The position numbers were made by a program, and so were the translations under genes. Shown here one piece after another: positions 1-58,601 of a stretch of DNA of 64,000 nt (position 1 is its first letter; every line of letters starts with the position of its first letter). The notes beneath the pieces are model-generated. The model saw only the letters and a list, made by a program, of their open reading frames with translations, was not told the origin of the DNA and did not search any database. This DNA comes from a virus. Taxonomy: Duplodnaviria > Caudoviricetes. The stretch lies in IMG/VR virus record IMGVR_UViG_3300042477_000769; one strand, given 5' to 3'.

Positions 1-32
1 ATTTAAATTTTGAAAAATTCTTTATTCAAGGG

Positions 33-998
33 GTGTTTTTAATTAAATGCAAAGGTTTTGAATTTATTCATGCTGCCTTATTTCATAAGGGAAATCAAAA
101 TGAAGACGAAGTAAGTTTCTTTGTTCTGGTTTCTGATAATAATTATGAAAATTATCTTTCTTTTAGAAATTCTTTTGAAGAGTGGATTGTTCAAAGAGAT
201 AGAAGTAATTTGCATATCAAGGTCATTGATGGGAATGATATTCCATATACTAAAGATTCTTCTTGGGAAGAATTATATTTACCCAATGAATTAAAAACAG
301 AAATAAAAGAATTAGTAGAAAACTTCTTATCTTCACAAGAGTTTTATCAAAAATCTAAAATTCCATGGAAACGCGGAATTCTGTTGTTTGGGCAACCAGG
401 TAATGGAAAAACTTCTATTATTAGAACCATCATGTCAGAATATAATTTTAAGCCGATTACTTTTATGCCCGGAGCCTCAGCCGAGGCGATGAGAGAGGCT
501 TTCTCTTATGCGGAAGAGCAAAGCCCTTCCCTTTTATATATTGAAGATTTAGATTCATTAATTGAATCTGGTTTAGATATTTCTACTTTTCTTAACTTAT
601 TAGATGGAATTTCAGCTAAAAATGGACTATTAGTGATTGCGACGGCTAATAATATTAATAAATTACAATCCAATATTACTAGTCGACCCTCAAGATTTGA
701 TAGAAAATTTGAGATTCCATTGCCAAATGAAAAAATGGCTTATATATATCTTAAAAGATGGTTTGGTAACCTCATCACTCCTAAAAAGTGTGAGGATTTA
801 GCTAATCAGGCAGTTAAATATGAATTATCTTATGCTTACTTAAAAGACTTATATGTATCTTCCATGTTCGAAGCTTTATCTCACAATCGAAAAAAACCTA
901 GTGCTAAAGATATTGATAATACTTTAGTACGGTTAGTAAAAGATAAAAATATGATGAATAATGGAACTACAATTAGTACGGATAAATATTTTAAATGA
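33..998 (+). CDS. AAA+ ATPase (FtsH/Cdc48-type AAA module, no protease domain); 5' partial, frame is open to the window edge
   Basis: Walker A GQPGNGKT, Walker B LLYIED, second region of homology SRPSRFDRKF; no stop codon in frame from position 3 to 33. Confidence 0.9.
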   Translation: MFLIKCKGFEFIHAALFHKGNQNEDEVSFFVLVSDNNYENYLSFRNSFEEWIVQRDRSNLHIKVIDGNDIPYTKDSSWEELYLPNELKTEIKELVENFLSSQEFYQKSKIPWKRGILLFGQPGNGKTSIIRTIMSEYNFKPITFMPGASAEAMREAFSYAEEQSPSLLYIEDLDSLIESGLDISTFLNLLDGISAKNGLLVIATANNINKLQSNITSRPSRFDRKFEIPLPNEKMAYIYLKRWFGNLITPKKCEDLANQAVKYELSYAYLKDLYVSSMFEALSHNRKKPSAKDIDNTLVRLVKDKNMMNNGTTISTDKYFK

Positions 999-26932: not shown

Positions 26933-27436
26933 ATGAGCCATACAGTAAGACTTGGTGATTTTTTAGGGACAGAATTAGAAGAAGATTTTATTAATTTTGA
27001 TTTTACCGAAATACAGAAAGTATTAACACATTTACAAGAGACAGATGCTTTGGACTTAGTTCATGCCGAGTTTTTACAACAGCAAGCGTTGCGAGGAGCG
27101 GATATTGTTTCTGAATATCTCGGCAAGATTATTAAAACAGTTGGATATTTAGAGGCTAAAGTTAATAGAACTAAAAATAAAGTCTCTTTAGAATATAAAG
27201 CTCCGGATGGAGAGCGAACTACTTTAGACATGAAAAAATGGGCCGGAGAGTCTTCTCTAGAGGTAGAAGAGGTTCAGATTAAATTAGCCAAAGCTAAAGC
27301 TTCTAAAATTGTATTGGAAAAAAAATATGATATTCTGATTAGAAGTCATCATCACTATAAAGATATTGCTCAGGGATTAAGAAGAACTGTCTTAGGATAT
27401 AATTCTACTACTAAAATTCCCGAAGGATATGAGTAG
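26933..27436 (+). CDS. coiled-coil protein, possibly a UvsY-like recombination mediator
   Basis: Size, helical pattern and position directly before the RecA/UvsX gene; function is an inference. Confidence 0.45.
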   Translation: MSHTVRLGDFLGTELEEDFINFDFTEIQKVLTHLQETDALDLVHAEFLQQQALRGADIVSEYLGKIIKTVGYLEAKVNRTKNKVSLEYKAPDGERTTLDMKKWAGESSLEVEEVQIKLAKAKASKIVLEKKYDILIRSHHHYKDIAQGLRRTVLGYNSTTKIPEGYE

Positions 27437-29324
27437 AATTGCTAAATTAACTGATGCTATCTTAGATGCTCGACTCCCATCTTCCATTAAAAGAATAGAT
27501 TCAGTCATTACTGCTAAAACAAAAATTACTTTTCAATGCGCACTATGTGATTATCAGTGGCTAGCTAAACCTGATAATATCTTGCATGGCAAAGGCTGCC
27601 CAGCCTGTGCCAAGTCGCTCCCTTTATCTAATGAAATTGTAGACCAACGTTTACTAGGTCGGCCGACGCAAAGAGTCGGAGACTATATTAATAGTCGAAC
27701 TAAAATCTGGTTTAGTTGCAAAAAGTGTCATTATCAATGGTTAACCACCCCACATACTATCTTAATTGATCAATGTGATTGCCCCAAATGTCACAAGTTA
27801 AGAAAAAACGAAACACTAATTAATGATCTATTGATTAACTTAAATATTAAGTTTGAAACTCAAAAAGATATTCGGGCTTTTAATAATCAAGAAGTTAACA
27901 AATATTATGTTGATTTTTATGTGCCAGAGTTGCGTTTAATTATTGAATATAATGGTCATCAGCATTATGCTCCCGTTCGTTTTGGTAATAGATCGCTAGC
28001 TAAGTCAACTCAAGCCTTTCAAAAACAACAAATTAGAGATAATTATCTTCGGTCTTTTTGCTTTAATAATAACCTGAATTTATTAGAAATTGATGGCCGA
28101 CGGTATTATTCAAATAAATTAACCACGTATTTAACAAAATTACTAACTGATATAGAAGGAAGCATGAAAAATTACGATTCTTTTTTTAAAACATACTCTG
28201 ACAACGAAGAACAATTAGACTTTAAAATGGCGCATGAAACGGTAGGAGAAAAGCTACCCGTTATTTCAACGGGATCATTTATTTTAGATGATGCTTTATC
28301 TTCTGGAGGATTGCCAGAAGGCAGACTCATTCAATACTATGGCGCTCCGGGTAGTGGTAAAACCTTATTAGCCATGTTAGCTATTAAGGAAGCTCAGCAA
28401 CAAAATCCTTCAGCAGACCAGGTATTTATTGATGCGGAACAGACGTTTTCGCCTACTTGGGCAGAATCTCTAGGATTAGATACTTCTCGTATTATTTTGA
28501 TTCAAGGCGATACGGCAGTCAATGGTCGTAAATGTTTTGAAATGTTATTAGGGGTACCGAAAGAAGATGTGAGAACGCATACCTTAAAAGGTCAGGCTAA
28601 AGATGGTTTGTTAGATAAGGTGGCGAATAAGGAGTTTGATATTAATTTGATTGTGCTGGACTCGTTGGGCTCTATTATTCCCCCCGGAGAAGACATCTCC
28701 GCCGTTGGCAAAATGAACATCTCCCTCCTAGCCCGCTTCTTAACCACCACCTTCCGCAAGCTATCTTTAGCTCTTTCTAAAACCAATTGCCCATTAATTA
28801 TCATTAATCATAAGAAAACCAGCATGGATCCTTATGGTTCCGATCATACTTTTTCTGGTGGCAATACTTATGCTCACTTCTTGAGTGCTAACGTCTATTT
28901 TGAACCTGTCAATCGGGCTGATGCTAAAATTTTAGATGAAAAAGAAAACAAAATTGGGCAAACCATTCGAGCTACGATCGAAAAGTCTAAATTTGGTCCT
29001 TGGCCACGCAAGTGTGAATTTAAAGTAGATTTTGGTATTGGAGTCATTGATAAGCATGAAGAAATTGCCACCTTAGCTTTAGATTATAATGTAGTGCAAA
29101 AACCCACTAGTGTGACTCATGAATATGGAGAGCGAAAATGGGTTGGTTTTGCTAAGTTTTGCGAAGCTATTCAATCTGATGGTGAGTTAGCGGCAGAATT
29201 ATTAGCTAAGATTAATCATGCTCGAGATTCTAAGTTAGAAACTAAGAGATTAGAGCAAGAAGCTAAAAAAGCCGAAAGTTTAGAGAAGGCTGGAAAATCG
29301 AAAAAAGGTAAAAAAGATGACTGA
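27429..29324 (+). CDS. recA: RecA/UvsX-like recombinase (from about 28164) fused in frame behind a 245-aa zinc-ribbon plus PD-(D/E)XK homing endonuclease
   Basis: RecA: STGS..LD.AL..GGLP.GR, GAPGSGKT, FIDAE, VLDSL, IINH, SGG; N-part: four CxxC and VDFY....IIEYNGHQHY. Confidence 0.9.
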   Translation: MSRIAKLTDAILDARLPSSIKRIDSVITAKTKITFQCALCDYQWLAKPDNILHGKGCPACAKSLPLSNEIVDQRLLGRPTQRVGDYINSRTKIWFSCKKCHYQWLTTPHTILIDQCDCPKCHKLRKNETLINDLLINLNIKFETQKDIRAFNNQEVNKYYVDFYVPELRLIIEYNGHQHYAPVRFGNRSLAKSTQAFQKQQIRDNYLRSFCFNNNLNLLEIDGRRYYSNKLTTYLTKLLTDIEGSMKNYDSFFKTYSDNEEQLDFKMAHETVGEKLPVISTGSFILDDALSSGGLPEGRLIQYYGAPGSGKTLLAMLAIKEAQQQNPSADQVFIDAEQTFSPTWAESLGLDTSRIILIQGDTAVNGRKCFEMLLGVPKEDVRTHTLKGQAKDGLLDKVANKEFDINLIVLDSLGSIIPPGEDISAVGKMNISLLARFLTTTFRKLSLALSKTNCPLIIINHKKTSMDPYGSDHTFSGGNTYAHFLSANVYFEPVNRADAKILDEKENKIGQTIRATIEKSKFGPWPRKCEFKVDFGIGVIDKHEEIATLALDYNVVQKPTSVTHEYGERKWVGFAKFCEAIQSDGELAAELLAKINHARDSKLETKRLEQEAKKAESLEKAGKSKKGKKDD

Positions 29325-35305: not shown

Positions 35306-35692
35306 ATGCAAGAAATTAAAAAAGAGATATGTGGCGCTAAAAAATATTATTGGAAGTATCAGCTACATCGAGAAGATGGGCCAGCCATAGAATGGCATGA
35401 TGGATCTAAAGAATGGTGGATTCATGGTCAACTTCATCGAGAAGATGGTCCGGCAGTAGAATATACTAATGGAGAGAAATTTTGGTATCTTTATGGTAAA
35501 TGCCATCGAGAAGATGGACCTGCCGTAGAATGGTTTAATGGAAATAAATATTGGTTTTTTCATGGTCAACGTCATCGAGAAGATGGCCCAGCTATAGAGC
35601 ATTCTGATGGATTGAAAGCTTTTTATCTTCAAGGAAAAGACTATTCAGAAGAAGAATATTGGCGATTAGTTAAATTAAAAGGTTTGTGGTAA
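35306..35692 (+). CDS. HREDGPA-repeat protein 5 (4 units)
   Basis: MQEIK...YWRLVKLKGLW. Confidence 0.9.
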   Translation: MQEIKKEICGAKKYYWKYQLHREDGPAIEWHDGSKEWWIHGQLHREDGPAVEYTNGEKFWYLYGKCHREDGPAVEWFNGNKYWFFHGQRHREDGPAIEHSDGLKAFYLQGKDYSEEEYWRLVKLKGLW

Positions 35693-35696
35693 CACA

Positions 35697-36083
35697 ATGC
35701 AAGAAATTAAGATAGATATATTTGGTACCAAAAAATATTATTGGAATGGTCGATTGCATCGAGAAGATGGGCCAGCGATAGAATATTCTGATGGAACTAC
35801 AGTGTGGTTTCTTCATAATAAGAAACATCGAGAAGATGGTCCGGCAGTAGAAACTATTGATGGAGATATGGGTTGGTATCGTTATGGAGAATTACATCGA
35901 GAAAAAGAGCCCGCCATTATATTAAATAATGGGGAGAAATCTTGGTGGCTTCATGATCAACGGCACAGAGAGGATGGGCCCGCCGTAGAATTTGCTAATG
36001 GAGAAAAAGAGTGGTTTCTTCAAGGCACAGAATATTTAGAAGAAGAATATTGGCGCTTAGTTAAACTAAAGGGTTTGTGGTAA
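35697..36083 (+). CDS. HREDGPA-repeat protein 6 (4 units)
   Basis: MQEIK...YWRLVKLKGLW. Confidence 0.9.
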   Translation: MQEIKIDIFGTKKYYWNGRLHREDGPAIEYSDGTTVWFLHNKKHREDGPAVETIDGDMGWYRYGELHREKEPAIILNNGEKSWWLHDQRHREDGPAVEFANGEKEWFLQGTEYLEEEYWRLVKLKGLW

Positions 36084-36087
36084 TAAT

Positions 36088-36474
36088 ATGCAAAAAATTA
36101 AGATAGATAAAGATGGTAATAAAAGATATTATTGGAATAATAAGTTACATCGAGAAGATGGTCCGGCCATAGAATGGTTTAATGGACGTAAAGATTGGTA
36201 CCTTCATGGTCAACGACATCGAGAAGCGGGACCAGCAGTAGAATATGAGAATGGAGATAAAGAATGGTTTATCCATGGAAAATATCATCGAGAAGATGGC
36301 CCAGCCAGAGAATTTTTTTGGGGAGGTAAAGAATGGTTTCTTCACGGTCAACTCCATCGAGAAGATGGACCAGCCATAGAATATGCTAGTGGAGAAAAAT
36401 ATTGGTACCTTCAAGGCAAAGAATATACAGAAGAAGAGTATTGGCGAGTGGTTAAATTAAAAGCTTTGTGGTAA
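36088..36474 (+). CDS. HREDGPA-repeat protein 7 (4 units)
   Basis: MQKIK...YWRVVKLKALW. Confidence 0.9.
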   Translation: MQKIKIDKDGNKRYYWNNKLHREDGPAIEWFNGRKDWYLHGQRHREAGPAVEYENGDKEWFIHGKYHREDGPAREFFWGGKEWFLHGQLHREDGPAIEYASGEKYWYLQGKEYTEEEYWRVVKLKALW

Positions 36475-46075: not shown

Positions 46076-48427
46076 ATGAAATTACGTAATTTATTAGATC
46101 AAATGCAATCTATATCTAATAAAATCGGCTCGTCTCAGCCGATGATCTGTGGAGGTACGCCTCGGGATCAGTATATGGAAAGATTAGATCATATTGCTGA
46201 TCTAGATATTACTACTGGAGATAAAAAAGTACAATTTTTAGCGCAAGAATTTGGTAATGCATTAGCTAAACAATATGATGTCACGACTAAAATTCATGAA
46301 GATGGTCACGGAACTATTTATTTAGGTGATTTTAAAATTGATTTTTCTTCCAATTTTAATATTCCTAATATTGATAATATTTTGATTAAACAAGGTATTA
46401 CTAAGCCAACTAGTATGCAAAAAGAAATGTTTAGTCGAGATTTTACTTGTAATTCATTATTATTATCCTTAGATCTAAAAAATGTCATCGATCCTACTTA
46501 TCACGGATTACAAGATATTGATCAGAAAATAATTAGAACTTGTTTATCTCCAGAAATTACTTTATTAACTAATAAAAATAGAGTGGTTCGTGCTATTTAT
46601 TTGGCCTCCAAATTAGATTTTAATATTGATCCCAATATTATCAGCTATGTGGCGGCACATCCAGAGTCAGTAAAAATCTCGACTCCTAAATCTTTAACAG
46701 AAAAACTAAATTCTGCTTTTGAATTTAATCCGGAACGTGCCGCTTTTTATCTGACTCAGATGAATTTGTGGAATTATGTTCCTATTACTCCTGTTATGAG
46801 ACCATTTTTTATGAAAAAAAATACCACCGTTTCTTATATTTTATCTAAATATGCTGCCATTTCATCCGTGTCAGAAGCCAAACAATTGTTTGGTTTATTG
46901 GAAAATTTTACAGAAGAAGATGTAAAAAAGAAATATAAAGAATTAGTGGTGAAAAATTATCCCGATGTTAATCCTGTTAATGGTCATGAGAAAATGTTAG
47001 ATATTACTCAAGCTAAAGAAATACTATTAAAAAGCCTGACTACTCCAGAGCCTGTATTATTAAAGGAAGAAGAACCATGGAGACATTCTTATCATACGCC
47101 TGTCTCTGAATATATGGATGATGAAAAATGGGAATATTATACCAATCCAGAAATATTTAAACAATATCAAAAAGATTTTGAAGCTGAGCAAAATTATCAT
47201 CAATATGATGAGGATAGTTCAAGATTAAGAGAACAAGCAGAAGAAGATAGAATTTATAATCTCAGAGATAATATCGTCTCTATTTTAGAAAAAGTTAACC
47301 CGAATAAATTAGTAGAAGATTTTGGAGTGGATCTCGATGCCACTTCAATAAAAGAACTAGGTTTAGGTAATTTAGCCTCAAATCAAGATGGAATAGAATT
47401 AAGTGATTTAATTTCAGCGGCTATTCTCGAGATCATCTATTATGACCATCCTAAATATTTACCTAAATTATTAGAATTAGATTATTTTAAAAATGCAGTT
47501 CGTTCAAATAATTATATGAACAAGAACATGTCAGACTTGCTAAACAAGATAGATAATGAAAATATTAATAAATTATTTTTGACCAGTAAACTTTCTCTTA
47601 AAGATTTATCTAATTATCGAGATGAGCAGGGTATTATTGATGTGTTATTAAATAATCAAAATAAAGTAGTTACTGATTTATTGCAAGCTAAAAATCCACT
47701 AGATATGGTAGTTTGGTTTAGCGCTCCAGTGTTAAAAAATGTTTCTTACATCTTGCTAGACCAAGAACAAACTAAGCCGATAGTAAAATTATTAGATTTG
47801 GTTAAGAGACAATTAAACCAAAAAATAAAAACAGCTTATTTTCAAGGTGGGGGAGGAGTCAACGAACCCACTCCGAAAAAACGAAAATATAAAATAGATC
47901 CGGCCGAAGTAGTCCAGCCGAGATTTGAAGAGCCGTTTTATCGTAATTATGATCTATATAATGTTCCTGGTAAATATGGTCCGGGCACTAGAAAAAATCC
48001 TAAAAACTTAAAAGGCAAATATAAAGCTAAAAAAACTGCTCGAACTAAAGTCTTATCTAATCTCTTAAAAGTAGCCATTGACTTTCCTTCTGATAACCAA
48101 GTTAATCCAGAATTAATTACTGGTCAGCAAAATAACTTAATGGAATATCTTAATCCGGCCGGAGGATATTTAGATAAATATCTTCCTGATAATGATTTGG
48201 AAGATAAAGACCCCACCAAATTAAACTTTGGTCGAGATTATGCCGATCAACCCACAGGGCCTAAAATCGATAATATTGAAAAATTATTAGAACAATATTT
48301 GCCGACTGATTTGTATGGATTACCAGATGGAGTCGATGTCACAGAAGAAGAATTAGACCAACCTAATGATATTAATCCATTTTATGGTACCTTAGGCCCT
48401 AATAGTTTGATTCATCAACGCTACTAA
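46076..48427 (+). CDS. class II tRNA-nucleotidyltransferase/poly(A) polymerase-like domain fused to a J-like domain (YPD) and a long tail
   Basis: CGGTPRD...DLDITT, SRDFTCNSL, DP...G..DI...IIR, NRVVRAI; VKKKYKELVVKNYPDVN. Confidence 0.8.
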   Translation: MKLRNLLDQMQSISNKIGSSQPMICGGTPRDQYMERLDHIADLDITTGDKKVQFLAQEFGNALAKQYDVTTKIHEDGHGTIYLGDFKIDFSSNFNIPNIDNILIKQGITKPTSMQKEMFSRDFTCNSLLLSLDLKNVIDPTYHGLQDIDQKIIRTCLSPEITLLTNKNRVVRAIYLASKLDFNIDPNIISYVAAHPESVKISTPKSLTEKLNSAFEFNPERAAFYLTQMNLWNYVPITPVMRPFFMKKNTTVSYILSKYAAISSVSEAKQLFGLLENFTEEDVKKKYKELVVKNYPDVNPVNGHEKMLDITQAKEILLKSLTTPEPVLLKEEEPWRHSYHTPVSEYMDDEKWEYYTNPEIFKQYQKDFEAEQNYHQYDEDSSRLREQAEEDRIYNLRDNIVSILEKVNPNKLVEDFGVDLDATSIKELGLGNLASNQDGIELSDLISAAILEIIYYDHPKYLPKLLELDYFKNAVRSNNYMNKNMSDLLNKIDNENINKLFLTSKLSLKDLSNYRDEQGIIDVLLNNQNKVVTDLLQAKNPLDMVVWFSAPVLKNVSYILLDQEQTKPIVKLLDLVKRQLNQKIKTAYFQGGGGVNEPTPKKRKYKIDPAEVVQPRFEEPFYRNYDLYNVPGKYGPGTRKNPKNLKGKYKAKKTARTKVLSNLLKVAIDFPSDNQVNPELITGQQNNLMEYLNPAGGYLDKYLPDNDLEDKDPTKLNFGRDYADQPTGPKIDNIEKLLEQYLPTDLYGLPDGVDVTEEELDQPNDINPFYGTLGPNSLIHQRY

Positions 48428-51438: not shown

Positions 51439-52152
51439 ATGGGCAAGCCAAAATCCAACACGGCAGAATTTATTGCTAAAAGCAATAAAAAACATCGTCA
51501 TTTTTATGATTATCAACAAGTGGATTATATTACTCAACATATTCCAGTCGTTATCAAGTGTCCTATTCACGGATTTTTTACTCAAAAACCAAAAGCACAT
51601 TTACGGTATGGATGTAATAAGTGTGCCCAAGAAGTAAGATTAAAATCAATTCGAAAAACTAGTGAAGAGATATTATCTCAGTGTTTCTTAGTGCATCAAG
51701 ATCGATATGATTATTCTAAGATGCAATTTCTTTCGACTCGCCAAAAAGTAGAAATAATTTGCAAAATCCATGGGCCGTTTTGGCAGACGATGCATGATCA
51801 TTTGGCCGGCAAAGGCTGTGCTAAATGCATTAATAAAGTATCCAAAAACGAAACTCGATGGTTAGATTTAATGAGCATCGACCCAAAATTTAGAAATTAT
51901 AAAATTAACTTAAGCAAGTCATATTATGTCGATGGATATGATCCAATGACTAAAACTATTTACGAGTTCAATGGTGATTATTGGCATGGTAATCCTAGTA
52001 AATTTTGTCCGGATAAAATTAATAATCATACTAAATGTAGTTTTGGTCAATTATATCAACAAACTTTAGCTAAAGAAGTAGAGTTTAAAAAACATGGCTA
52101 TAAAGTTATATCTATTTGGGAAGTTGATTTTGTGAATATTTATGGCCGATGA
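51439..52152 (+). CDS. homing-endonuclease-like protein, paralog of 48443-49552 (two zinc repeats)
   Basis: YVDGYDP...IYEFNGDYWHGNP. Confidence 0.8.
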   Translation: MGKPKSNTAEFIAKSNKKHRHFYDYQQVDYITQHIPVVIKCPIHGFFTQKPKAHLRYGCNKCAQEVRLKSIRKTSEEILSQCFLVHQDRYDYSKMQFLSTRQKVEIICKIHGPFWQTMHDHLAGKGCAKCINKVSKNETRWLDLMSIDPKFRNYKINLSKSYYVDGYDPMTKTIYEFNGDYWHGNPSKFCPDKINNHTKCSFGQLYQQTLAKEVEFKKHGYKVISIWEVDFVNIYGR

Positions 52153-54472
52153 TAGTTTATTTTTAAAATTAAAGAATCAATTGATGATGTTAGATCCGGT
52201 AGTCTTTGTGGAATCTAACCTGACATTAGATGGCAAGCCTTTTAGATTGCGAGGGAATGGATATCGACCCTTTGCGGAGATTTATCGGTATATTGGGATT
52301 AAGGCGTTGGAGCCAAATTCGAAGCCGATCATTATCGTGAAAGGTAGACAAGTGGGCGCCACCACCATGGCCTCCGCCCTAGAAATGTACTTCATGGGCT
52401 CCGGCATTTTTGGCACCGGCAGCAAGCCTCCGGTTCGAATTATTCATGCCTTTCCCCAATTAGAATTAGCGGCAGCCTACTCTAAAACCAAATTAAATCA
52501 AATTATTTCTTCTTCGGTCCCATTACCATCAGATCCCAATAATAAGTCATTAAAGCCCAAAGCTTATATGCAATCGTTATTGGATCAATCTACTTCCACT
52601 AATGATTCGTTACATTTTAAGCAATTTGTAGGTGGTAATCATTTATGGATTGAGTCTGTGGGTTTAGATGGTGATAGAGTAATGGGACGCAGTGCGGATA
52701 TTATCTTCTTTGATGAATGTTTTCCGTATAATCAAAAAATAGCAACTAATCAAGGTAAAAAATCTATTGGTCAATTATATGATTTATTTACCAATAATCA
52801 AAATGTTCCATTAGTTTTAACTTTTAATTTAGAAAATGAAAATTTTGAATACAAAAAAATTGTTAATGTCTTTAATCGTGGAGATAAAAAATTAGTTAAT
52901 ATTAAATTAAGTGGAAGAAAAATTTCATGTACTGATAATCATCGGTTTCTGACTGAATTTGGCTGGAAAGAAATAAAAGATATTCCTATTGGAACATTAA
53001 TTAAAAGCTACGATGATACTTATAAAAAAGTTAGTTGGTTAGTTTTAGATAGCATTGAATATTCGAATGAGACAAAAACAGTCTATGATATTGAAGTAGA
53101 AGATAATCATAATTTTATTTTGGCGCCAAATAAAAATGGAAAGCATCAAGGTGGTCCGATAGTTCATAATTGCCAGAAAACTACTAGTATTGCCATTGGA
53201 AATTCTCTTAAAACTTTAACAACAGCCAAATATGGTAAACCGTCTAAAGGAGTTCAAGTTTATTTTGGAACTCCTAGAAGAAAAGGCTCTGATTTCCATA
53301 AAATGTGGCAAACTTCTTCTCAACAATATTATTATTTAGGATGTGGAAAATGTAAAGAATATTTTCCTCTATATACTCCTGGATCAGATGATTGGAAGAA
53401 TATTTGGATTTATGGATTTATGGTTAAATGCCCACATTGTGGTCATGAGCAAAATAAATTAGAAGCGGCAGAAAGAGGTAAATGGACTGCCTTACGAGAC
53501 CCAGATGATCCGGATTGCAAAATGGTTGGGTTCCATATCAATCAATTATACATGCCTATGTTTAGTCGAGAAGATATGGATAATGAAATGCCGGGGAATC
53601 ATCCTATTAATACTGAACGTGTCTTCATGAACGAAGTTATGGGAGAATTCTTTCAAGGAGATTCTAGTCCCATTACTCCAGAAGAAATTAAAGAGAAATG
53701 TGGAGATGACCGTAAATTTAGTGCTCGTATTGCTCCTTCTCGAAATGGTACCGATCAACAAATCGTAGTCTTAGGTATCGATTATGGTGCTAGAGCAGAC
53801 GTAGAACAATTAGCCGATATTGAAAATTCTAAATCTAAAGGTCAATCCTATAGTACAGCAGTGGTGTTATCGGCTAAAGGCCCAGGATTATTACATATTG
53901 AATTTGCCACTAAATTTAAAAGAAACGATCCGGAAAGCAAAAAGGGTCTGATTGAACAAATTATTAGACAATATGGTGTGAATTTAGCGATTGGTGATAT
54001 TGGATATTCTAATGATTTTTCTCAAACGTTACATCAAATTTATGGGGACAAATATATTGTCTCTCGTGCTCATCCAAAAGTCAATAATCATATCAAATAT
54101 AGTATAGATGCTTTTCCCAAAGAATTAGTCTTTGAAAGAGATTATTATATTGGAGAATTATATGAACAATTAAAGAATGGGATGATTAAGTTTCCTTTTG
54201 GAGACTATGAAAAAATTGCTTGGTTAATTGATCATTGTTGTAGTATGGAAATTAAGCCCTCTATTTCTCGAATGGGGGCGGATCCTCAAATCCATTATGT
54301 CAAGGGCGGAACTCCCAATGACGGATTTATGGCCTTATTGAATGCCTATTTGGCATATAAATTTATCATTACTAAGGGATTTACTAATAATAATCCTATT
54401 TTGCAAAAATCTAATTTTTCTAATATGAATAAGCCATTAGTAACTGGTGGTTATATTTCTCGTAAATTCTGA
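52142..54472 (+). CDS. terL: terminase large subunit with a mini-intein
   Basis: Walker A KGRQVGATT, Walker B IFFDE|CQ, FGTP coupling motif, CGKC/CPHC insert, nuclease LGIDYG. Confidence 0.88.
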   Translation: MADDSLFLKLKNQLMMLDPVVFVESNLTLDGKPFRLRGNGYRPFAEIYRYIGIKALEPNSKPIIIVKGRQVGATTMASALEMYFMGSGIFGTGSKPPVRIIHAFPQLELAAAYSKTKLNQIISSSVPLPSDPNNKSLKPKAYMQSLLDQSTSTNDSLHFKQFVGGNHLWIESVGLDGDRVMGRSADIIFFDECFPYNQKIATNQGKKSIGQLYDLFTNNQNVPLVLTFNLENENFEYKKIVNVFNRGDKKLVNIKLSGRKISCTDNHRFLTEFGWKEIKDIPIGTLIKSYDDTYKKVSWLVLDSIEYSNETKTVYDIEVEDNHNFILAPNKNGKHQGGPIVHNCQKTTSIAIGNSLKTLTTAKYGKPSKGVQVYFGTPRRKGSDFHKMWQTSSQQYYYLGCGKCKEYFPLYTPGSDDWKNIWIYGFMVKCPHCGHEQNKLEAAERGKWTALRDPDDPDCKMVGFHINQLYMPMFSREDMDNEMPGNHPINTERVFMNEVMGEFFQGDSSPITPEEIKEKCGDDRKFSARIAPSRNGTDQQIVVLGIDYGARADVEQLADIENSKSKGQSYSTAVVLSAKGPGLLHIEFATKFKRNDPESKKGLIEQIIRQYGVNLAIGDIGYSNDFSQTLHQIYGDKYIVSRAHPKVNNHIKYSIDAFPKELVFERDYYIGELYEQLKNGMIKFPFGDYEKIAWLIDHCCSMEIKPSISRMGADPQIHYVKGGTPNDGFMALLNAYLAYKFIITKGFTNNNPILQKSNFSNMNKPLVTGGYISRKF
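52718..53170 (+). other. mini-intein (151 aa, no endonuclease) at Walker B DE|C
   Basis: CFPYNQKI, CTDNHRF, VYDIEVEDNHNF, IVHN then Cys+1. Confidence 0.93.
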
Positions 54473-54527: not shown

Positions 54528-57500
54528 ATGGCTAAAAATAAATTAACACGTTGGGATGGCCCTTCTAAATCGGAGCAATATTTAGCATCTCGATCTGATG
54601 TACCGCAAGTTAGCGCTTTGATGGCAAAATCAGTGTCACAGTTTAGACGAGATGGAATCTCAAATGAAGTCAATCAAGGATTTTTTCGTGATGGTTCGGG
54701 CCCGTCAGCCTCAGAAGATGGTAGTACGGTTAATGGAAGGGTAGTATCTTCAGTTGGTCAAAATAAATTTGCTCAAGTAGTTAGCTCTTCTGGAGGAAAC
54801 TATCGTGGTGGTAACGGAGATACTGTTAAACAATCTCCAGAAGTTTATTCTCCATTATGGTTGAATTCTAATTTAAACTTACCACGAGATAGAGCCACTA
54901 TTAATGCTTGGTGTCGCAGCTTTTATGCACTAAATCCCTTTGTCCATAATGCTATTAATTTGCATAGCACTTATCCTATTAGTAAATTAAATATTACTTG
55001 TCCCAATAAAGAAATTGAAAGATTCTTCAATGATATGATTGAAGAAATTGATTTAATGAATGTCTGCGTTCAAATTGCCCAAGAATATTGGTTATTGGGA
55101 GAGTCTTTCGTCTATTCAGAATTAGATGAAAGTCGTGGCAAATGGAGCCGGTTATTAATTCAAAATCCAGATTATATGATTGTCAAACGTACTGTAGTGG
55201 CGAATGAGCCCATCATTATGTTACGCCCGGATGAAAATTTAAAGAAAATTATCTTTTCTAATCGACCTACTGATATTGAGCAAAGAAAACAATTAAATAG
55301 TCACATTATTAATTCCGTTAAACGTGGCGAGAATATTCCTTTAGATAATTTTCATGTCTCTCATTTGGCGAGAAGAATTAGTCCGTATGAAATCCGAGGG
55401 ACGGGGTTGCCGGTGTGTATTTTCCGGCAGCTGATGTTGTTTGATAAGTTACGCGAGTGCTACTCCGCTGACACCGAAGTTCTCACCAATCAAGGTTTTA
55501 AAAAAATCACCGACCTTTTACAAGTCAATAATACAGTCAATCATAAACTAGCTCGTATTAAACTAGCCTTAGTAGATGATAATAACCAAGTTAATTATGA
55601 TTATCCTGAAAATTTATCTATTGAGCAATATTCTGGTCAAATATTTTCGGTGACTGGTAAAAAAGTAGATTTAGCAGTTTTACCAACTAGTTGGTTAGAT
55701 GTAGCTAAAACTGATAATAACTTTCAAAAGGTGATGGCCTCTTCTTTATTAGAAAAGAAATCCTATTATCAATTTAATTCTCAAGTCCAATTTAATAATA
55801 CTGACCATCCGGCCACCGTGGTAGTCAATGGCAAGCATATTCCAACCGAATTATACTTAAAAGTATTAGGCTATTTGGTCTCCGAAGGATGCATTTATGC
55901 TAATGATCAAAATAATAGACATGATGCGTCTATCTCGGTCAGTCAATTAACTTCTAGTGATTGTTATCAAGAGATGAGAGAGTCTTTTGATGTATTTGCC
56001 CAATTATTAAATAAAAAGGCTAATCATACTGTTAAAGTAATTGGTTCTGGATATTCTGCTCATACTCCCAAAGAAAAATGGCAAGTAGTGATTCATGGCA
56101 AAGATCTCGTTGACCATTTTAAAAAAGAAATTGGTACTAATCAAAATACCTTATCGGCTCATAAATGTTTGCCTCGATGGGTATTAAATTTAACTCCCGA
56201 ATTAATGAATACATTATTGCAGGCATTAGTTAAAGGAGATGGCTCAGAACGAGTAGCAAATAAGTCGACTAGTTTTAAATATTCTACCATTTCTAAGCAA
56301 TTAGCTGATGATGTATATGAATTAGTATTTAAATTAGGGTTTGCGCCGAATCTGTGTATTTCTACTGCGACTAAAACCAATAACAAATCAGTGACAGAAT
56401 ATATTGTCATGTGGTCGACTACTGAGTATGGCAATCATCCATATGTCTGTTCTTTTGATCACAAGAATAAATTTGGTGGTGCGACTATTGCTCTTAATGA
56501 GTATACTGGTAAATTATGGAATATTGCGACCAATAAAAAAGTTATTTCTAGAAGAAATGGTAAAATCACAGTCCAATATGCTAATTCTTATGATGAGCAC
56601 ACTGAAATTTTAACAGAAGAAGGCTTTAAATATTTACACCAATTAGAGAAAGATAATTACATTAATGGCATCATTGTCAATGAGGATCAATCATTATCGT
56701 TATTAACTTTGAAAGATGATATTAAAATTGCTTGTGTTAATCCTAAGACTCAAGCCATGGAATATCATACGCCTATTGAAATGCATATGTCTCACTATGA
56801 TGGAGATATGATTCATTTTCAAGGTAAAAAAGTAGATTGCTTAGTTACTCCCAATCACAAAATGTGGGTCAATCCAATTATTAACAATCAAGAAATGGGA
56901 TATGCTAAAATTCCAGCTCGAGAATTATCCGTTGGACATTCTTATAAATTTAATAATGTTATTGATTGGGCCGGTAATAATGTAGAGTCGGTAACAGTCA
57001 TTGATAAACAAGTTCCGATTGAGGTATATTTAAAATTTATTGGCAATGTGATTAGTGAGGGTTGTGTTGATAGTAGTTTGAATAAAAAAACCAATCAACA
57101 TAGAAATAGGGTGGTAGTTACTCAATTAACGCAATCTTTATATTATCGCAATATGAGAGAGAATATTGAAAATTTTGCTCAGATTTTCGATAAAAAAGTA
57201 TCTACCTCCATTAAAGTTAAAGGCGGAGGCTTCTCGGCTCATTGTCCCAAAGAACAATGGAGCGGAACTATTTATTATAATTTGCTCAATAAGTACTTAA
57301 TTGAGACTATTGGGATCGATGGTAAGTGTGATTCTAAAAACAAACGAATTCCTAGATTTGTTTTAGATTTATCTCCAGATAAATTGCAAATTATTTTAGA
57401 CGCTTTATTGGATGGTGATGGTTCTAGAAAGAAATTAAATAACTCGCAATCGTCTTATAAGTATTCTACTGCCTCTAAACAATTAGCAGATGATGTTTAT

Positions 57501-58601
57501 GAGTTAGTTTATAAATTAGGATATGTGCCTATTTTACAAGCTTTCAAGAGAAAGACTTGTACTGAATATGTAATTCGATGGTCTGATACTAATAAAGGGT
57601 TAACACCTAAAATTAATGGTAGCGGTAAAAATCAAAAAGGCGCTTCTTTTAACAAAGTAAATTATCATGGTTTGGTGTGGTGTTTTGAGGTACCGACGGG
57701 ATTGTTTGTGACGAGAAGAAATGGGAAGGTGACGGTGCAGGGGAATTCGAAGTACGCCCAGGCGGATAATATGGTAAACCCCCTCACCCTGGTCAAAATC
57801 GGCACCGACGCTGCCGACGGCCTTCACCCCACCTTTGCCGACCTAGAAGCCTGGCGCAATGTCTTTGAGCAAGCTCAATATGATAAGGATTTTAAGATTT
57901 TTACTCATTCTGGCGTAGCGGTAGAACGAGTGGGTTATGGTCAAGGCATTTATGACATTTCTGGAGATATTACCCAAATTATTAAAGAGATTTATGTTGG
58001 GTTACAAGTACCGCCGGTATTAATGGATGGTGGCGCGGATACCACTTATGCTAATGGTAGTGTGGCCTTGGATGTATTAAAGCAACGCTATATGCAATTC
58101 CGAAACATGCTATCTACTTGGTTAAAGAGAAAAATCTTCGCTCCTATTTCTAAGATCCAGGGATTTTATGATTATTCTCATGGAGAAAAGCAATTAATTG
58201 TGCCCGAAGTAGATTGGAATCATATGGCATTATTTGATGCTGGTGATTATATTAATACTTTGTTAACCTTAACGCAAGGCGAAGGAGACGCTAAACGTGC
58301 GTCATTGCATACGCTGTATCGTTCTTTGGGTCTAGAGTTTGAAGATGAAATTAGAAAGATGAGAAAAGAATCGATTCAAAGTGCGATCGCTGTAAAAGAG
58401 AAAGAGTCTTTAGCGGCTATGGATTTGAATGCCTTACGAGCCTTGGATGAAGAGGATGAAATTCCAGAAATAGAAAAAGATCCTAATGAGGCTGGTGGTA
58501 GTGAGGGAGCTTTACCAGGACAAGATGCTGGTGGAGGACTTCCTGGATTAGAGAAGGGTTCGGGAGAAGAACCTCCAGTCCCACCTCCACCTGGAGCGTA
58601 A
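54528..58601 (+). CDS. portal protein interrupted by two tandem inteins (mature about 594 aa)
   Basis: Directly after terL; F...NPFVHNAINL, IAQEYWLLGE, HLARRISPYEIRGT, IYVGLQVP, acidic Pro/Gly tail typical of myovirus portals. Confidence 0.8.
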   Translation: MAKNKLTRWDGPSKSEQYLASRSDVPQVSALMAKSVSQFRRDGISNEVNQGFFRDGSGPSASEDGSTVNGRVVSSVGQNKFAQVVSSSGGNYRGGNGDTVKQSPEVYSPLWLNSNLNLPRDRATINAWCRSFYALNPFVHNAINLHSTYPISKLNITCPNKEIERFFNDMIEEIDLMNVCVQIAQEYWLLGESFVYSELDESRGKWSRLLIQNPDYMIVKRTVVANEPIIMLRPDENLKKIIFSNRPTDIEQRKQLNSHIINSVKRGENIPLDNFHVSHLARRISPYEIRGTGLPVCIFRQLMLFDKLRECYSADTEVLTNQGFKKITDLLQVNNTVNHKLARIKLALVDDNNQVNYDYPENLSIEQYSGQIFSVTGKKVDLAVLPTSWLDVAKTDNNFQKVMASSLLEKKSYYQFNSQVQFNNTDHPATVVVNGKHIPTELYLKVLGYLVSEGCIYANDQNNRHDASISVSQLTSSDCYQEMRESFDVFAQLLNKKANHTVKVIGSGYSAHTPKEKWQVVIHGKDLVDHFKKEIGTNQNTLSAHKCLPRWVLNLTPELMNTLLQALVKGDGSERVANKSTSFKYSTISKQLADDVYELVFKLGFAPNLCISTATKTNNKSVTEYIVMWSTTEYGNHPYVCSFDHKNKFGGATIALNEYTGKLWNIATNKKVISRRNGKITVQYANSYDEHTEILTEEGFKYLHQLEKDNYINGIIVNEDQSLSLLTLKDDIKIACVNPKTQAMEYHTPIEMHMSHYDGDMIHFQGKKVDCLVTPNHKMWVNPIINNQEMGYAKIPARELSVGHSYKFNNVIDWAGNNVESVTVIDKQVPIEVYLKFIGNVISEGCVDSSLNKKTNQHRNRVVVTQLTQSLYYRNMRENIENFAQIFDKKVSTSIKVKGGGFSAHCPKEQWSGTIYYNLLNKYLIETIGIDGKCDSKNKRIPRFVLDLSPDKLQIILDALLDGDGSRKKLNNSQSSYKYSTASKQLADDVYELVYKLGYVPILQAFKRKTCTEYVIRWSDTNKGLTPKINGSGKNQKGASFNKVNYHGLVWCFEVPTGLFVTRRNGKVTVQGNSKYAQADNMVNPLTLVKIGTDAADGLHPTFADLEAWRNVFEQAQYDKDFKIFTHSGVAVERVGYGQGIYDISGDITQIIKEIYVGLQVPPVLMDGGADTTYANGSVALDVLKQRYMQFRNMLSTWLKRKIFAPISKIQGFYDYSHGEKQLIVPEVDWNHMALFDAGDYINTLLTLTQGEGDAKRASLHTLYRSLGLEFEDEIRKMRKESIQSAIAVKEKESLAAMDLNALRALDEEDEIPEIEKDPNEAGGSEGALPGQDAGGGLPGLEKGSGEEPPVPPPPGA
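55458..56585 (+). other. portal intein A (376 aa, LAGLIDADG), Cys1, degenerate block B
   Basis: CYSADTEVLT; VLGYLVSEG and LQALVKGDG; ends SRRNGKITVQYAN. Confidence 0.85.
56586..57746 (+). other. portal intein B (387 aa, LAGLIDADG), Ser1
   Basis: SYDEHTEILT; LVTPNHKMWV; FIGNVISEG and LDALLDGDG; VWCFEVPTGLFVTRRNGKVTVQGN then Ser+1. Confidence 0.9.

What the first reader, a model, noticed from the sequence alone, without database searches (positions are those of the whole stretch)
55458..57746. Two paralogous inteins fused back-to-back in the portal, sharing one Ser as +1 of the first and residue 1 of the second
Seen: after DKLRE comes intein A (CYSADTEVLT ... RRNGKITVQYAN, 376 aa), then with no extein intein B (SYDEHTEILT ... 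RRNGKVTVQGN, 387 aa), then SKYAQ. Both carry LAGLIDADG domains and are clear paralogs (KYSTISKQLADDVYELVFKLG vs KYSTASKQLADDVYELVYKLG). A keeps Cys1 and a terminal Asn but has lost the block-B His (LPTS vs TPNH in B) and has a decayed block F. B has an intact block B/F/G but starts with Ser. Established: splicing needs a residue-1 nucleophile, the block-B TxxH, a terminal Asn and a +1 Cys/Ser/Thr. Inference: either a sequential relay (each excision creates the junction the other needs, and both orders give LRE-SKYAQ) or one composite 763-aa intein using A's Cys1 and B's catalytic residues. An essential portal depends on this. I know of no described zero-spacer tandem intein, but could not check the literature.
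Basis: partly seen in the sequence, partly recalled or inferred. Interest (0 to 1): 0.92.

Follow-up and report, generated by a model that had tools for sequence, protein, structure and literature searches.

The report
Two fused inteins acting as one
The portal gene of a lake-water giant phage is interrupted by two self-splicing protein elements (inteins) joined end to end with nothing between them, and comparison with relatives indicates that they have decayed in complementary ways, so that they can only cut themselves out together as one 763-residue unit, an arrangement I found no description of.

Summary
The 1357-aa portal ORF (54528-58601) carries a 763-aa insert between LRE and SKYAQ. It consists of two paralogous LAGLIDADG inteins (A 376 aa, B 387 aa, 37% identical) with no spacer. 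About 60 close relatives have the empty site LRE|SKYAQ, and about 100 carry one intein there.

It is not an assembly artefact. Contigs from two further lake-water runs bridge the A/B joint without a difference, and five other metagenomic portals have the same tandem.

The "shared Ser" relay is not supported as the general mechanism. In those relatives the joint reads N|A, N|A, G|S, G|I and N|EY.

All 103 single inteins keep Cys1, the block B His, the block F Trp-Cys and (102/103) the terminal Asn. In the tandems, A keeps only Cys1 and B keeps everything except residue 1.

Segment-wise conservation and two AlphaFold models (window and a relative) agree on one topology. A's first ~25 residues complete B's Hint fold. 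B's first ~23 residues complete A's decayed Hint fold.

Best reading: one composite, strand-swapped intein. The A units form one clade but sit in at least four portal lineages, so the element appears mobile.

It is a new variant of a known kind. Splicing itself is untested.

The parts
54528..58601 (+). Portal protein gene with the insert (1357 aa precursor; predicted mature portal 594 aa)
   Evidence: ORF; PHROG 16240 portal on both exteins; 35% identity to the phage G portal
54528..55457 (+). N-extein (310 aa), ends ...MLFDKLRE
   Evidence: Gapless alignment to intein-free portals
55458..55532 (+). A residues 1-25 (block A, Cys1, strands 1-2). Proposed N-terminal strands of the ACTIVE Hint domain
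   Evidence: Cys1 5/5 in A units and 103/103 in singles. Within-clade identity 66% versus 41-49% for the rest of A's Hint. Mini-inteins and Npu IntN align from model residue 14-16
55533..55553 (+). Hinge of A (residues 26-32), at the site of a ~20-aa deletion relative to single inteins
   Evidence: pLDDT <50 at model residues 41-47; deletion seen in the alignment
55554..56585 (+). A body: decayed Hint lobes (block B LPTS at 55671-55694; block F/G LWNIA...QYAN at 56505-56585) around an intact LAGLIDADG endonuclease (motifs at 55854-55895 and 56205-56243)
   Evidence: Loss of block B Thr/His and block F Cys. Endonuclease as conserved as in single inteins, 67% versus 70%. Pfam LAGLIDADG_3
56583..56588 (+). 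A/B joint, Asn376-Ser377 (AAT TCT), zero spacer. Proposed never to be cleaved
   Evidence: Joint is N|A, N|A, G|S, N|EY, G|I in the five other tandems. Bridged by independent contigs
56586..56651 (+). B residues 1-22 (block A without a conserved nucleophile). Proposed to complete A's decayed Hint domain
   Evidence: Residue 1 is S/A/A/S/Y/I. Within-group identity 52% versus 66% in singles. The permuted Npu intein 5ol6_A aligns to model 62-414. This segment is B-lineage while the rest of B is P0011-like
56652..56663 (+). Hinge of B (residues 23-26), at the site of a ~7-aa deletion shared by all B units
   Evidence: pLDDT <50 at model residues 414-417; shared deletion
56664..57746 (+). B body: intact Hint lobes (block B TPNH within 56835-56870; block F VWCFE within 57669-57713; block G ...VQGN 57714-57746) around a LAGLIDADG endonuclease (57027-57065, 57387-57425)
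   Evidence: All residues invariant in 103 singles are kept in 5/5 B units. Pfam hit. I-DmoI aligns to model 526-730, Z 15.3
57747..57749 (+). +1 Ser of the C-extein (TCG)
   Evidence: S (or C) in all homologues, including empty alleles
57747..58601 (+). C-extein (284 aa) and stop codon

Best explanation
The 763-aa insert is one composite intein made of two fused paralogues that have degenerated in complementary ways and are excised together in a single splicing event.

Proposed working parts: A's N-terminal ~25 residues (block A with Cys1) are strand-swapped into B's Hint domain. There they sit next to B's block B Thr-x-x-His, B's block F Trp-Cys, B's terminal Asn and the +1 Ser. That site performs the usual acyl shift at Glu310-Cys311, transesterification to Ser1074 and Asn1073 cyclisation. 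The result is ...LRE-SKYAQ... and one free 763-aa product.

Reciprocally, B's first ~23 residues complete A's decayed Hint body. The N- and C-terminal junctions of that second Hint unit are the same peptide bond (Asn376-Ser377). It therefore has nothing to splice, and its catalytic residues were free to decay.

Both LAGLIDADG endonucleases remain conserved, and the element has moved between portal alleles.

Shown: the architecture, its recurrence, the pattern of conservation and the predicted topology. Inferred: that splicing happens, its chemistry, and that the swap exists in the real protein.
For: (1) An unspliced intein at this site is not tolerated. All 103 single inteins at the site keep Cys1, the block B His, block F Trp-Cys, Thr376 and Arg377, and 102/103 keep the terminal Asn.

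(2) Complementary decay in the tandems. A units have Cys1 in 5/5. They have the block B His in 1/5 full-length units (LPTS, LPSS, LPSS, SFDS, LPEH), plus DPDH in the N-truncated sixth tandem, P0118. They have the F:4 Cys in 0/6. Their C-termini are YAN three times, then GQG, NCN and GDG. B units have residue 1 as S, A, A, S, Y or I, and every other invariant residue in 5/5. Neither unit can be removed alone in at least four of the six tandems.

(3) Segment-wise identity within groups.
- A clade: strands 1-2 66%, N-lobe rest 41%, endonuclease 67%, C-lobe 49%.
- Sister singles: 77/70/70/75%.
- B units: 52/66/60/72%.
- Neighbouring singles: 66/63/60/71%.
The relaxed parts are exactly A's Hint body plus B's first strands.

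(4) AlphaFold2 model of the window insert with 15-aa flanks, pLDDT 87.5.
- Mini-inteins superpose from A's residue 1 to B's last residue. gp41-1 aligns 125/127 aa at rmsd 2.2, AceL NrdHF 151/154 aa at rmsd 2.3 with Z 19.3, both over model range 14..778-781.
- The Npu DnaE N-fragment alone (4lx3_A, 99/101 aa, rmsd 2.5) spans model 14..518, that is A's start plus B's N-lobe.
- A circularly permuted Npu intein (5ol6_A) spans 62..414, that is A's body plus B's first strands.
- The same ranges recur in a second model of relative P0005: 14..533 and 62..424.

(5) The low-confidence hinges (model 41-47 and 414-417) coincide with deletions of ~20 aa in A and ~7 aa in B relative to singles. Loop shortening is known to drive splice-active domain swapping in the Npu DnaE intein (Aranko 2013, as described in PMC8175363).

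(6) The window's B is a recombinant whose breakpoint lies at the proposed module boundary. Residues 1-22 are like other B units (68% aa, 70-76% nt). Residues 46-387 are like the single intein of P0011 (65% aa, 68% nt, versus 46%/58% to P0004's B).

(7) The five full-length A units form one clade (SH-aLRT 99), but their carriers need at least 4 changes on the extein tree and sit among empty alleles. The composite has therefore spread and survived in several phage lineages.

(8) The stretch is present in 21 lake and freshwater runs from 20 studies, dated 2020-2024. This points to a persisting phage population.
Against: - There is no protein-level evidence. Nothing shows that the portal is spliced or what is released.
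- The topology rests on AlphaFold2 (pTM 0.56-0.57). Both models used essentially the same alignment, in which only five rows cover A. I could read only first and last aligned residues, not contacts. A prediction bias that joins an extein-flanked Cys1 to a terminal Asn cannot be excluded.
- Cys1 conservation in A rests on five related sequences, so its statistical weight is weak.
- The family's invariant block F Cys opens a class-3-like route in which residue 1 is dispensable.
- In the window itself the joint Asn|Ser is chemically competent, so a relay is not excluded for this particular copy.
- The six tandems are all metagenomic, and their viability is inferred.
Confidence: 0.62

Rival explanations
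1. Sequential relay of two independent inteins. A and B each splice on their own. Ser377 serves as +1 for A or as residue 1 for B, and either order yields LRE-SKYAQ.
For: In the window A has Cys1 and a terminal Asn, the joint is Asn|Ser, and B ends GN|S. A few inteins are known to work without the block B His (my recollection of the Tko CDC21-1 intein; not checked here).
Against: In the other tandems the joint is N|A (twice), G|S, G|I and N|EY. So A lacks a +1 nucleophile or a terminal Asn in at least four of five relatives. A lacks the block F Cys in 6/6 tandems and the block B His in 4/6, both invariant in 103 singles. A's Hint lobes evolve much faster than those of singles. Both AlphaFold models place the joint outside the active site.
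Confidence: 0.1
2. B alone splices by a class-3-like route. Its invariant block F Cys attacks the bond before B's residue 1, so no residue-1 nucleophile is needed. A stays in the mature portal as a tolerated inserted domain, or is removed by a protease.
For: Cys at block F position 4 is invariant in the family. B's residue 1 is free to vary, as in class 3 inteins. The best mini-intein match to the model is a class 3 intein (6zgq_B, Z 19.3).
Against: The WCT triplet that defines class 3 is not met. The Trp lies 3, not 2, residues after the His, and block G position 5 is Gln/His, not Thr. Single inteins keep Cys1 in 103/103. No single intein at this site is ever catalytically decayed, which argues that a retained intein is not tolerated. 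A keeps Cys1 in 5/5 and its first strands are conserved. The models put A's Cys1, not B's residue 1, at the canonical position.
Confidence: 0.12
3. Composite intein without a strand swap. Both Hint domains fold from their own segments. Because an intein's two ends lie side by side, A's Cys1 sits close enough to B's active site for the acyl group to pass to B's block F Cys or to the +1 Ser.
For: The same complementary decay as in the best explanation. In alignment A1, on which the first AlphaFold model was built, all single inteins align to the B half including B's first strands. Their co-variation should therefore favour an unswapped B.
Against: Both models give the swapped topology anyway. 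B's first strands are relaxed and A's are conserved. Both units have shortened hinges. The recombination breakpoint lies after B's first strands.
Confidence: 0.13
4. Not functional: an assembly chimera, or a dead portal gene in a defective phage.
For: All data are metagenomic and no genome is held for the window.
Against: Independent contigs bridge the joint with no differences. There are six intact ORFs of 1000-1800 aa with the same architecture. The stretch is present in runs of 20 studies over 2020-2024. Both endonucleases, A's first strands and B's Hint are under purifying selection.
Confidence: 0.02

Closest known systems
Domain-swapped Npu DnaE intein dimers that perform intein-mediated protein alternative splicing (iPAS; Aranko et al. 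2013 Nat Chem Biol, PDB 4KLS, as described in PMC8175363)
   Same: [quoted passage not shown] The swapped unit is splice-active, and the swap is induced by loop shortening.
   Different: That system is engineered, intermolecular and symmetric, and swaps whole lobes at the endonuclease-insertion loop. Here the system is natural and intramolecular (one chain). Only the first ~25 residues are exchanged, and one of the two Hint units is catalytically dead with zero-length exteins.
Genes with several neighbouring inteins, e.g. haloarchaeal MCM-a/MCM-d 'double inteins' (PMC10643990) and this portal family's own site a + site b doubles
   Same: Several homing-endonuclease inteins in one essential gene. 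Paralogous inteins at nearby sites, with site b about 42 residues downstream of site a in relatives.
   Different: Those inteins are separated by extein residues, each keeps a full catalytic set, and each splices by itself. Here there is no spacer and neither unit is complete.
Atypical split inteins with a very short N-fragment (AceL-TerL, VidaL, engineered Cat; PDB 6vgw and 6dsl appear in the hit lists)
   Same: The first ~15-25 residues of the Hint fold (block A with residue 1) are separable from the rest and dock back to form the active site.
   Different: Those are two polypeptides from two genes. Here the short N-segment is tethered to the rest through a ~390-aa inserted pseudo-intein.
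Circularly permuted inteins (SICLOPPS constructs, PDB 5ol6)
   Same: The inserted module (A body + B's first strands) has the order of a permuted Hint domain with its natural termini joined, and it superposes on 5ol6_A.
   Different: SICLOPPS is engineered and active, cyclising its extein. The natural module is catalytically decayed and has no extein.
LAGLIDADG inteins of phage portal, terminase and nucleotidyltransferase genes (Kelley 2016, PMC5050341; Gosselin 2025, bioRxiv 10.1101/2025.01.02.630785)
   Same: Same kind of element and host gene class. The window's units hit such inteins at 23-27% identity.
   Different: Neither survey text that I searched mentions tandem or nested inteins. 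Their 'non-canonical' cases concern the endonuclease, not the splicing domain.
Class 3 inteins (WCT triplet; Tori 2010, PMC2807308)
   Same: Invariant Cys at block F position 4; Ser at +1; phage setting.
   Different: Trp and Thr of the triplet are not in place, and single members of this family all keep Cys1.

Membership tests
Intein (the insert as a whole) | In-frame insertion absent from close homologues, with host sequence continuous across it | tested here: met
   About 60 empty alleles read LRE|SKYAQ. Phage G and Phabba portals bridge the site without a gap. PHROG profile positions are continuous across it.
Intein (the insert as a whole) | Residue-1 nucleophile, block B T-x-x-H, terminal Asn and a +1 Ser/Cys/Thr in one unit | tested here: met
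   Cys311 (from A), TPNH (B 88-91), Asn1073 (B) and Ser1074. They are met only when A and B are taken together.
Intein (the insert as a whole) | Hint fold that brings both splice junctions together | tested here: met
   Prediction only. Mini-inteins superpose over model residues 14..778-781 at rmsd 2.2-2.5, Z 14-19, and likewise in relative P0005.
Intein (the insert as a whole) | Protein splicing actually occurs | not testable with these tools
   Needs expression or proteomics.
Class 1 intein, unit A on its own | Block B Thr/His, block F position 4 residue, terminal Asn followed by a nucleophile | tested here: not met
   LPTS instead of TPNH, and Asn instead of the family's invariant Cys. In relatives the terminal residue is Gly twice and the next residue is Ala, Ile or Glu.
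Class 1 intein, unit B on its own | Conserved Cys/Ser/Thr at residue 1 | tested here: not met
   Ser in the window, but S/A/A/S/Y/I across the six tandems, against Cys in 103/103 singles.
Class 3 intein | WCT triplet: Trp two residues after the block B His, Cys at block F position 4, Thr at block G position 5 (PMC2807308) | tested here: not met
   Only the Cys is present. Trp is three residues after His (TPNHKMW), and G:5 is Gln or His.
LAGLIDADG homing endonuclease (both units) | Two LAGLIDADG motifs with acidic residues; the fold | tested here: met
   Pfam PF14528 in A (E 4.5e-09) and B (E 7.8e-07). Motifs ...SEGC and ...GDGS in both. I-DmoI superposes on B's endonuclease (Z 15.3) and on A's in the P0005 model (Z 14.6). 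Cleavage activity is not testable here.
Portal protein | Homology of both exteins to portal families; position next to the terminase gene | tested here: met
   PHROG 16240/2833; phage G portal; the upstream ORF has the GpA_ATPase terminase domain.

The most novel reading that the evidence does not exclude
The module 'A body + first strands of B' is a parasite of inteins. It is a catalytically dead, circularly permuted intein that keeps its own homing endonuclease, lives inside the first loop of a working intein, and depends on that host intein for its removal from the protein. It moves between different resident inteins as well as between portal alleles. That would explain why the five full-length A units form one clade while B bodies come from at least two intein lineages, with the breakpoint at the module boundary.
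Probability: 0.2. Interest if true: 0.92.

Novelty: new variant of a known kind. Interest (0 to 1): 0.82.

Why it matters
Inteins are treated as autonomous units, each with one Hint domain, one set of catalytic residues and one excision. Here two copies appear to have become mutually dependent parts of a single splicing machine, through a strand exchange previously seen only in engineered inteins.

If confirmed, it would be the first natural case of several things:
- a zero-spacer tandem intein;
- subfunctionalisation between intein paralogues;
- an intramolecular domain swap needed for protein splicing.

It would show that a ~390-residue folded insert is tolerated after the first ~25 residues of an intein. 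That is directly useful for designing conditional or caged inteins and new split sites.

It also offers a natural system for asking how selfish elements stack up at one site of an essential gene. The site exists in empty, single, tandem and tandem-plus-site-b alleles within one phage family. A related case may exist in a terminase gene elsewhere (an unchecked note from this scan).

Tried and rejected
- Class 3 assignment: rejected, because the WCT triplet is not met.
- Whole-lobe swap (A's N-lobe with B's C-lobe, as in the Npu iPAS dimer): rejected. A's block B is decayed while B's is conserved, and the Npu N-fragment aligns to model 14..518, not 14..~130.
- The idea that the window's A residues 1-25 also come from a P0011-like intein, which would show that the inner module moved on its own: not supported. 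Identity is 75% aa but only 61% nt to P0011, against 62% aa and 68% nt to P0004. One crossover inside B is enough.
- Search for further zero-spacer tandems among 298 fetched proteins, including the 150 best representatives matching unit A out of 1.84 billion: only the six portal cases. The motif used is family-specific, so other families were not really tested.
- Sequence search of unit B against PDB: no hit.
- Megablast of the gene against GenBank phages: no hit.
- No whole genome is held for the window, so a second intein-free portal copy could not be looked for.
Topology was read only from alignment ranges.
- Complex prediction was not used, because docking of a homologous strand would not discriminate between the models.
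- dN/dS was not computed, because synonymous sites are saturated at 56-76% nt identity. Segment-wise protein identity was used instead.

Full report
**1. What is there**

The ORF 54528-58601 (+) encodes 1357 aa. Its two ends are a portal protein. PHROG 16240 matches residues 107-292 to profile positions 76-262, and C-terminal residues 10-143 to profile positions 290-421. The profile is therefore continuous across the insert.

The nearest named relatives are the portals of Bacillus phage G (35% identity) and Mycobacterium phage Phabba. Both bridge the site without a gap, as ...DKLRE|AQNAIA....

Between LRE and SKYAQ lie 763 aa (55458-57746). These are unit A (376 aa) and unit B (387 aa). They are 37% identical end to end (E 2e-72), and each has a Pfam LAGLIDADG_3 domain.

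The window has 34% GC, nearly all its ORFs of 100 aa or more lie on one strand, and it carries other phage genes. Relatives in IMG/VR sit on contigs of up to 480 kb. This is a large phage from lake water.

**2. The junction and the artefact question**

Of 80 IMG/VR loci with a closely related portal (75-89% identity in the N-extein):
- about 60 have the empty site MLFDKLRE|SKYAQADN;
- seven have one intein there;
- four have an intein only at a second site (site b) about 42 residues downstream;
- two have the tandem.

The 801 bases around the A/B joint occur in 21 lake or freshwater runs from 20 studies (2020-2024), 11 of them holding half or more of the sampled words. Contigs of two runs that are not the likely source bridge position 56586 with no difference (X5 56440-56797, X6 56348-56845). 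These are contigs, not raw reads. Together with five independent assemblies of the same architecture (below), a chimera is excluded.

**3. The family**

A search of 5.8 billion proteins gave about 100 portals with a single ~400-aa intein at the same site (CY[SD]xDTEVLT...TRRNGKITIQGN|SKY). It also gave many with a second paralogous intein at site b, and four more zero-spacer tandems: P0003, P0004, P0005 (which also has a site-b intein, 1794 aa) and P0019. A sixth tandem, the N-truncated P0118, turned up later.

Among 298 fetched proteins these six are the only back-to-back cases. That set includes the 150 best of 1978 representatives matching unit A.

**4. The joint is not a splice site in the relatives**

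The joint reads:
- QYAN|S in the window;
- QYAN|A in P0003 and P0004;
- QGQG|S in P0005;
- QNCN|EY in P0019;
- QGDG|I in P0118.

A relay needs a nucleophile after A and an Asn at A's end. At least four of the five relatives lack one or the other.

**5. Complementary decay**

In 103 single inteins, Cys1, the block B His, the block F Trp-Cys, Thr376 and Arg377 are invariant, and the terminal Asn is present in 102. This shows that an intein stuck at this site is not tolerated.

The five full-length A units keep Cys1 in all five. They have lost the block B Thr (5/5) and His (4/5), the block F Cys (5/5) and most of block F. P0118's truncated A keeps the His (DPDH) and has also lost the block F Cys.

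B units have lost only residue 1 and keep every other invariant residue.

The decayed states differ between lineages: LPTS/LPSS/SFDS/LPEH/DPDH in block B, and YAN/GQG/NCN/GDG at A's end. The loss of constraint is therefore old and ongoing.

A cannot leave by itself, and the site does not tolerate a resident intein. So A must leave with B, using A's Cys1 and B's machinery.

**6. Which parts are under constraint**

Mean pairwise identity within groups:

| Group | Strands 1-2 | Rest of N-lobe | Endonuclease | C-lobe |
|---|---|---|---|---|
| A clade | 66% | 41% | 67% | 49% |
| Sister single inteins | 77% | 70% | 70% | 75% |
| B units | 52% | 66% | 60% | 72% |
| Neighbouring singles | 63-66% range (66%) | 63% | 60% | 71% |

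The relaxed parts are A's Hint body and B's first strands. The constrained parts are A's first strands, B's Hint body and both endonucleases.

**7. Predicted structure**

AlphaFold2 was run on the insert with 15-aa flanks, using 63 aligned sequences. Mean pLDDT was 87.5 and pTM 0.57.

- Every mini-intein superposes from model residue 13-16 (A's Cys1 is residue 16) to 778-781 (B's Asn is residue 778). Examples: gp41-1, 125 of 127 residues at rmsd 2.2; AceL NrdHF, 151 of 154 at rmsd 2.3, Z 19.3.
- The isolated N-fragment of the Npu DnaE split intein (4lx3_A, 99 of 101 residues, rmsd 2.5) spans 14..518. So the N-lobe of that Hint unit starts with A's first strands and continues in B's N-lobe, which holds TPNH at model 479-482.
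- A circularly permuted Npu intein (5ol6_A) spans 62..414. That is A's body plus B's first ~23 residues.
- The two stretches of low confidence, 41-47 and 414-417, are the crossovers.

A second model, of the P0005 tandem (pLDDT 88.0), gives the same ranges: 14..533 and 62..424.

This predicted topology is the one that places all conserved catalytic residues in one site and all decayed ones in the other.

In the alignment used, all single inteins aligned to the B half, including B's first strands. The alignment itself therefore did not favour the swap.

**8. Hinges and precedent**

Relative to single inteins, all A units lack ~20 residues and all B units ~7 residues just after the first ~22-25 residues. 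That is exactly at the predicted crossovers.

Shortening of a loop turns the Npu DnaE intein into a domain-swapped dimer. [quoted passage not shown] The present case would be a natural, intramolecular and asymmetric counterpart.

**9. History**

On a tree of 146 intein units, the five full-length A units form one clade (SH-aLRT 99) nested among single inteins of site a. The B units of the five relatives fall in a different clade of single inteins. The window's B groups with yet another clade, that of P0011/14/15/16 (support 99).

The window's B is a recombinant. Its first ~22 residues carry the B-lineage signature, including the shared deletion (68% aa and 70-76% nt to P0003/P0004 B, against 45%/56% to P0011). 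Residues 46-387 are P0011-like, including a shared 4-residue gap (65%/68% against 46%/58%). The breakpoint is at the proposed module boundary, as expected if B's first strands must stay with A's body.

On an extein tree of 170 portals, the five tandem carriers need at least four changes of state and lie among empty alleles. The window's exteins are 94% identical to an empty allele. The composite has therefore been transferred between portal alleles, presumably by homing. That fits the conserved endonucleases and implies it works after transfer.

**10. Comparison with what is known**

The family is not class 3. Of the defining Trp-Cys-Thr triplet only the Cys is in place.

Neighbouring inteins in one gene are known, for example haloarchaeal MCM (PMC10643990), but they are separated by extein and are autonomous.

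Surveys of phage inteins list portal inteins but no tandem or nested ones.

Eight full-text searches found no natural case. They used terms such as tandem, nested, adjacent, consecutive, back-to-back, fused or duplicated inteins, and intein domain swapping. The library is open-access only, so absence is not proof.

Within this scan, one unchecked first-reader note reports back-to-back inteins in a terminase gene of another genome. Another notes the two-site arrangement in a related portal.

**11. Verdict**

The relay idea is not supported as the general mechanism. The composite idea is supported by five lines of evidence:
- residue conservation;
- segment-wise rates;
- predicted topology in two proteins;
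- hinge deletions;
- the recombination breakpoint.

What is missing is any protein-level evidence. My confidence is about 0.75 that the insert is removed as one unit. It is about 0.6 that this works through the N-terminal strand swap.

Noticed in passing
window 57852-57887 (site b; junction after 57869): Relatives carry a second, paralogous LAGLIDADG intein about 42 residues downstream of site a, as ...FE|C...GN|SAQYDK. The window's site b is empty and reads FE|QAQYDK. Most empty alleles read FE|EAQYDK. The +1 Ser therefore seems to arrive with the intein at site b, unlike site a, where empty alleles already have Ser.
   Followed up: partly
L060 / P0005 (1794 aa): One relative's portal carries three intein units: the zero-spacer tandem at site a plus a site-b intein.
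   Followed up: partly
window 19229-23215 (+): The DNA polymerase III alpha gene (PHP, NTPase and finger domains) is interrupted by a Hint + LAGLIDADG intein at about residues 400-840.
   Followed up: no
window 52142-54472 (+): The terminase large subunit (GpA_ATPase) carries an intein splicing domain at about residues 206-343 with no endonuclease hit, so it is probably a mini-intein. P0004's contig has a 631-aa terminase without it.
   Followed up: no
window 27429-29324 (+): A RecA-like ORF of 631 aa has a treble-clef zinc finger (DUF4379) and a DUF559 (Vsr-like endonuclease) domain fused in front of the RecA core. This may be a homing-endonuclease fusion or an unrecognised insertion.
   Followed up: no
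window 35306-36474 (+): Three consecutive 128-aa ORFs are paralogues of one another, 62-67% identical.
   Followed up: no
window 46076-48427 (+): A 783-aa ORF combines a CCA-adding/poly(A) polymerase head domain with a DnaJ domain.
   Followed up: no
window 57695, 57746, 57758: Run X1 holds a second contig variant across the B/C-extein junction. The change at 57746 is AAT to AAC in the terminal Asn codon, which is synonymous. Two strains probably co-occur.
   Followed up: no
H1, Escherichia virus TH47 (MT446416.1) 348950-350002: Both A and B match a single intein-like region of this 352-kb phage at 27% identity, in an unannotated record.
   Followed up: no
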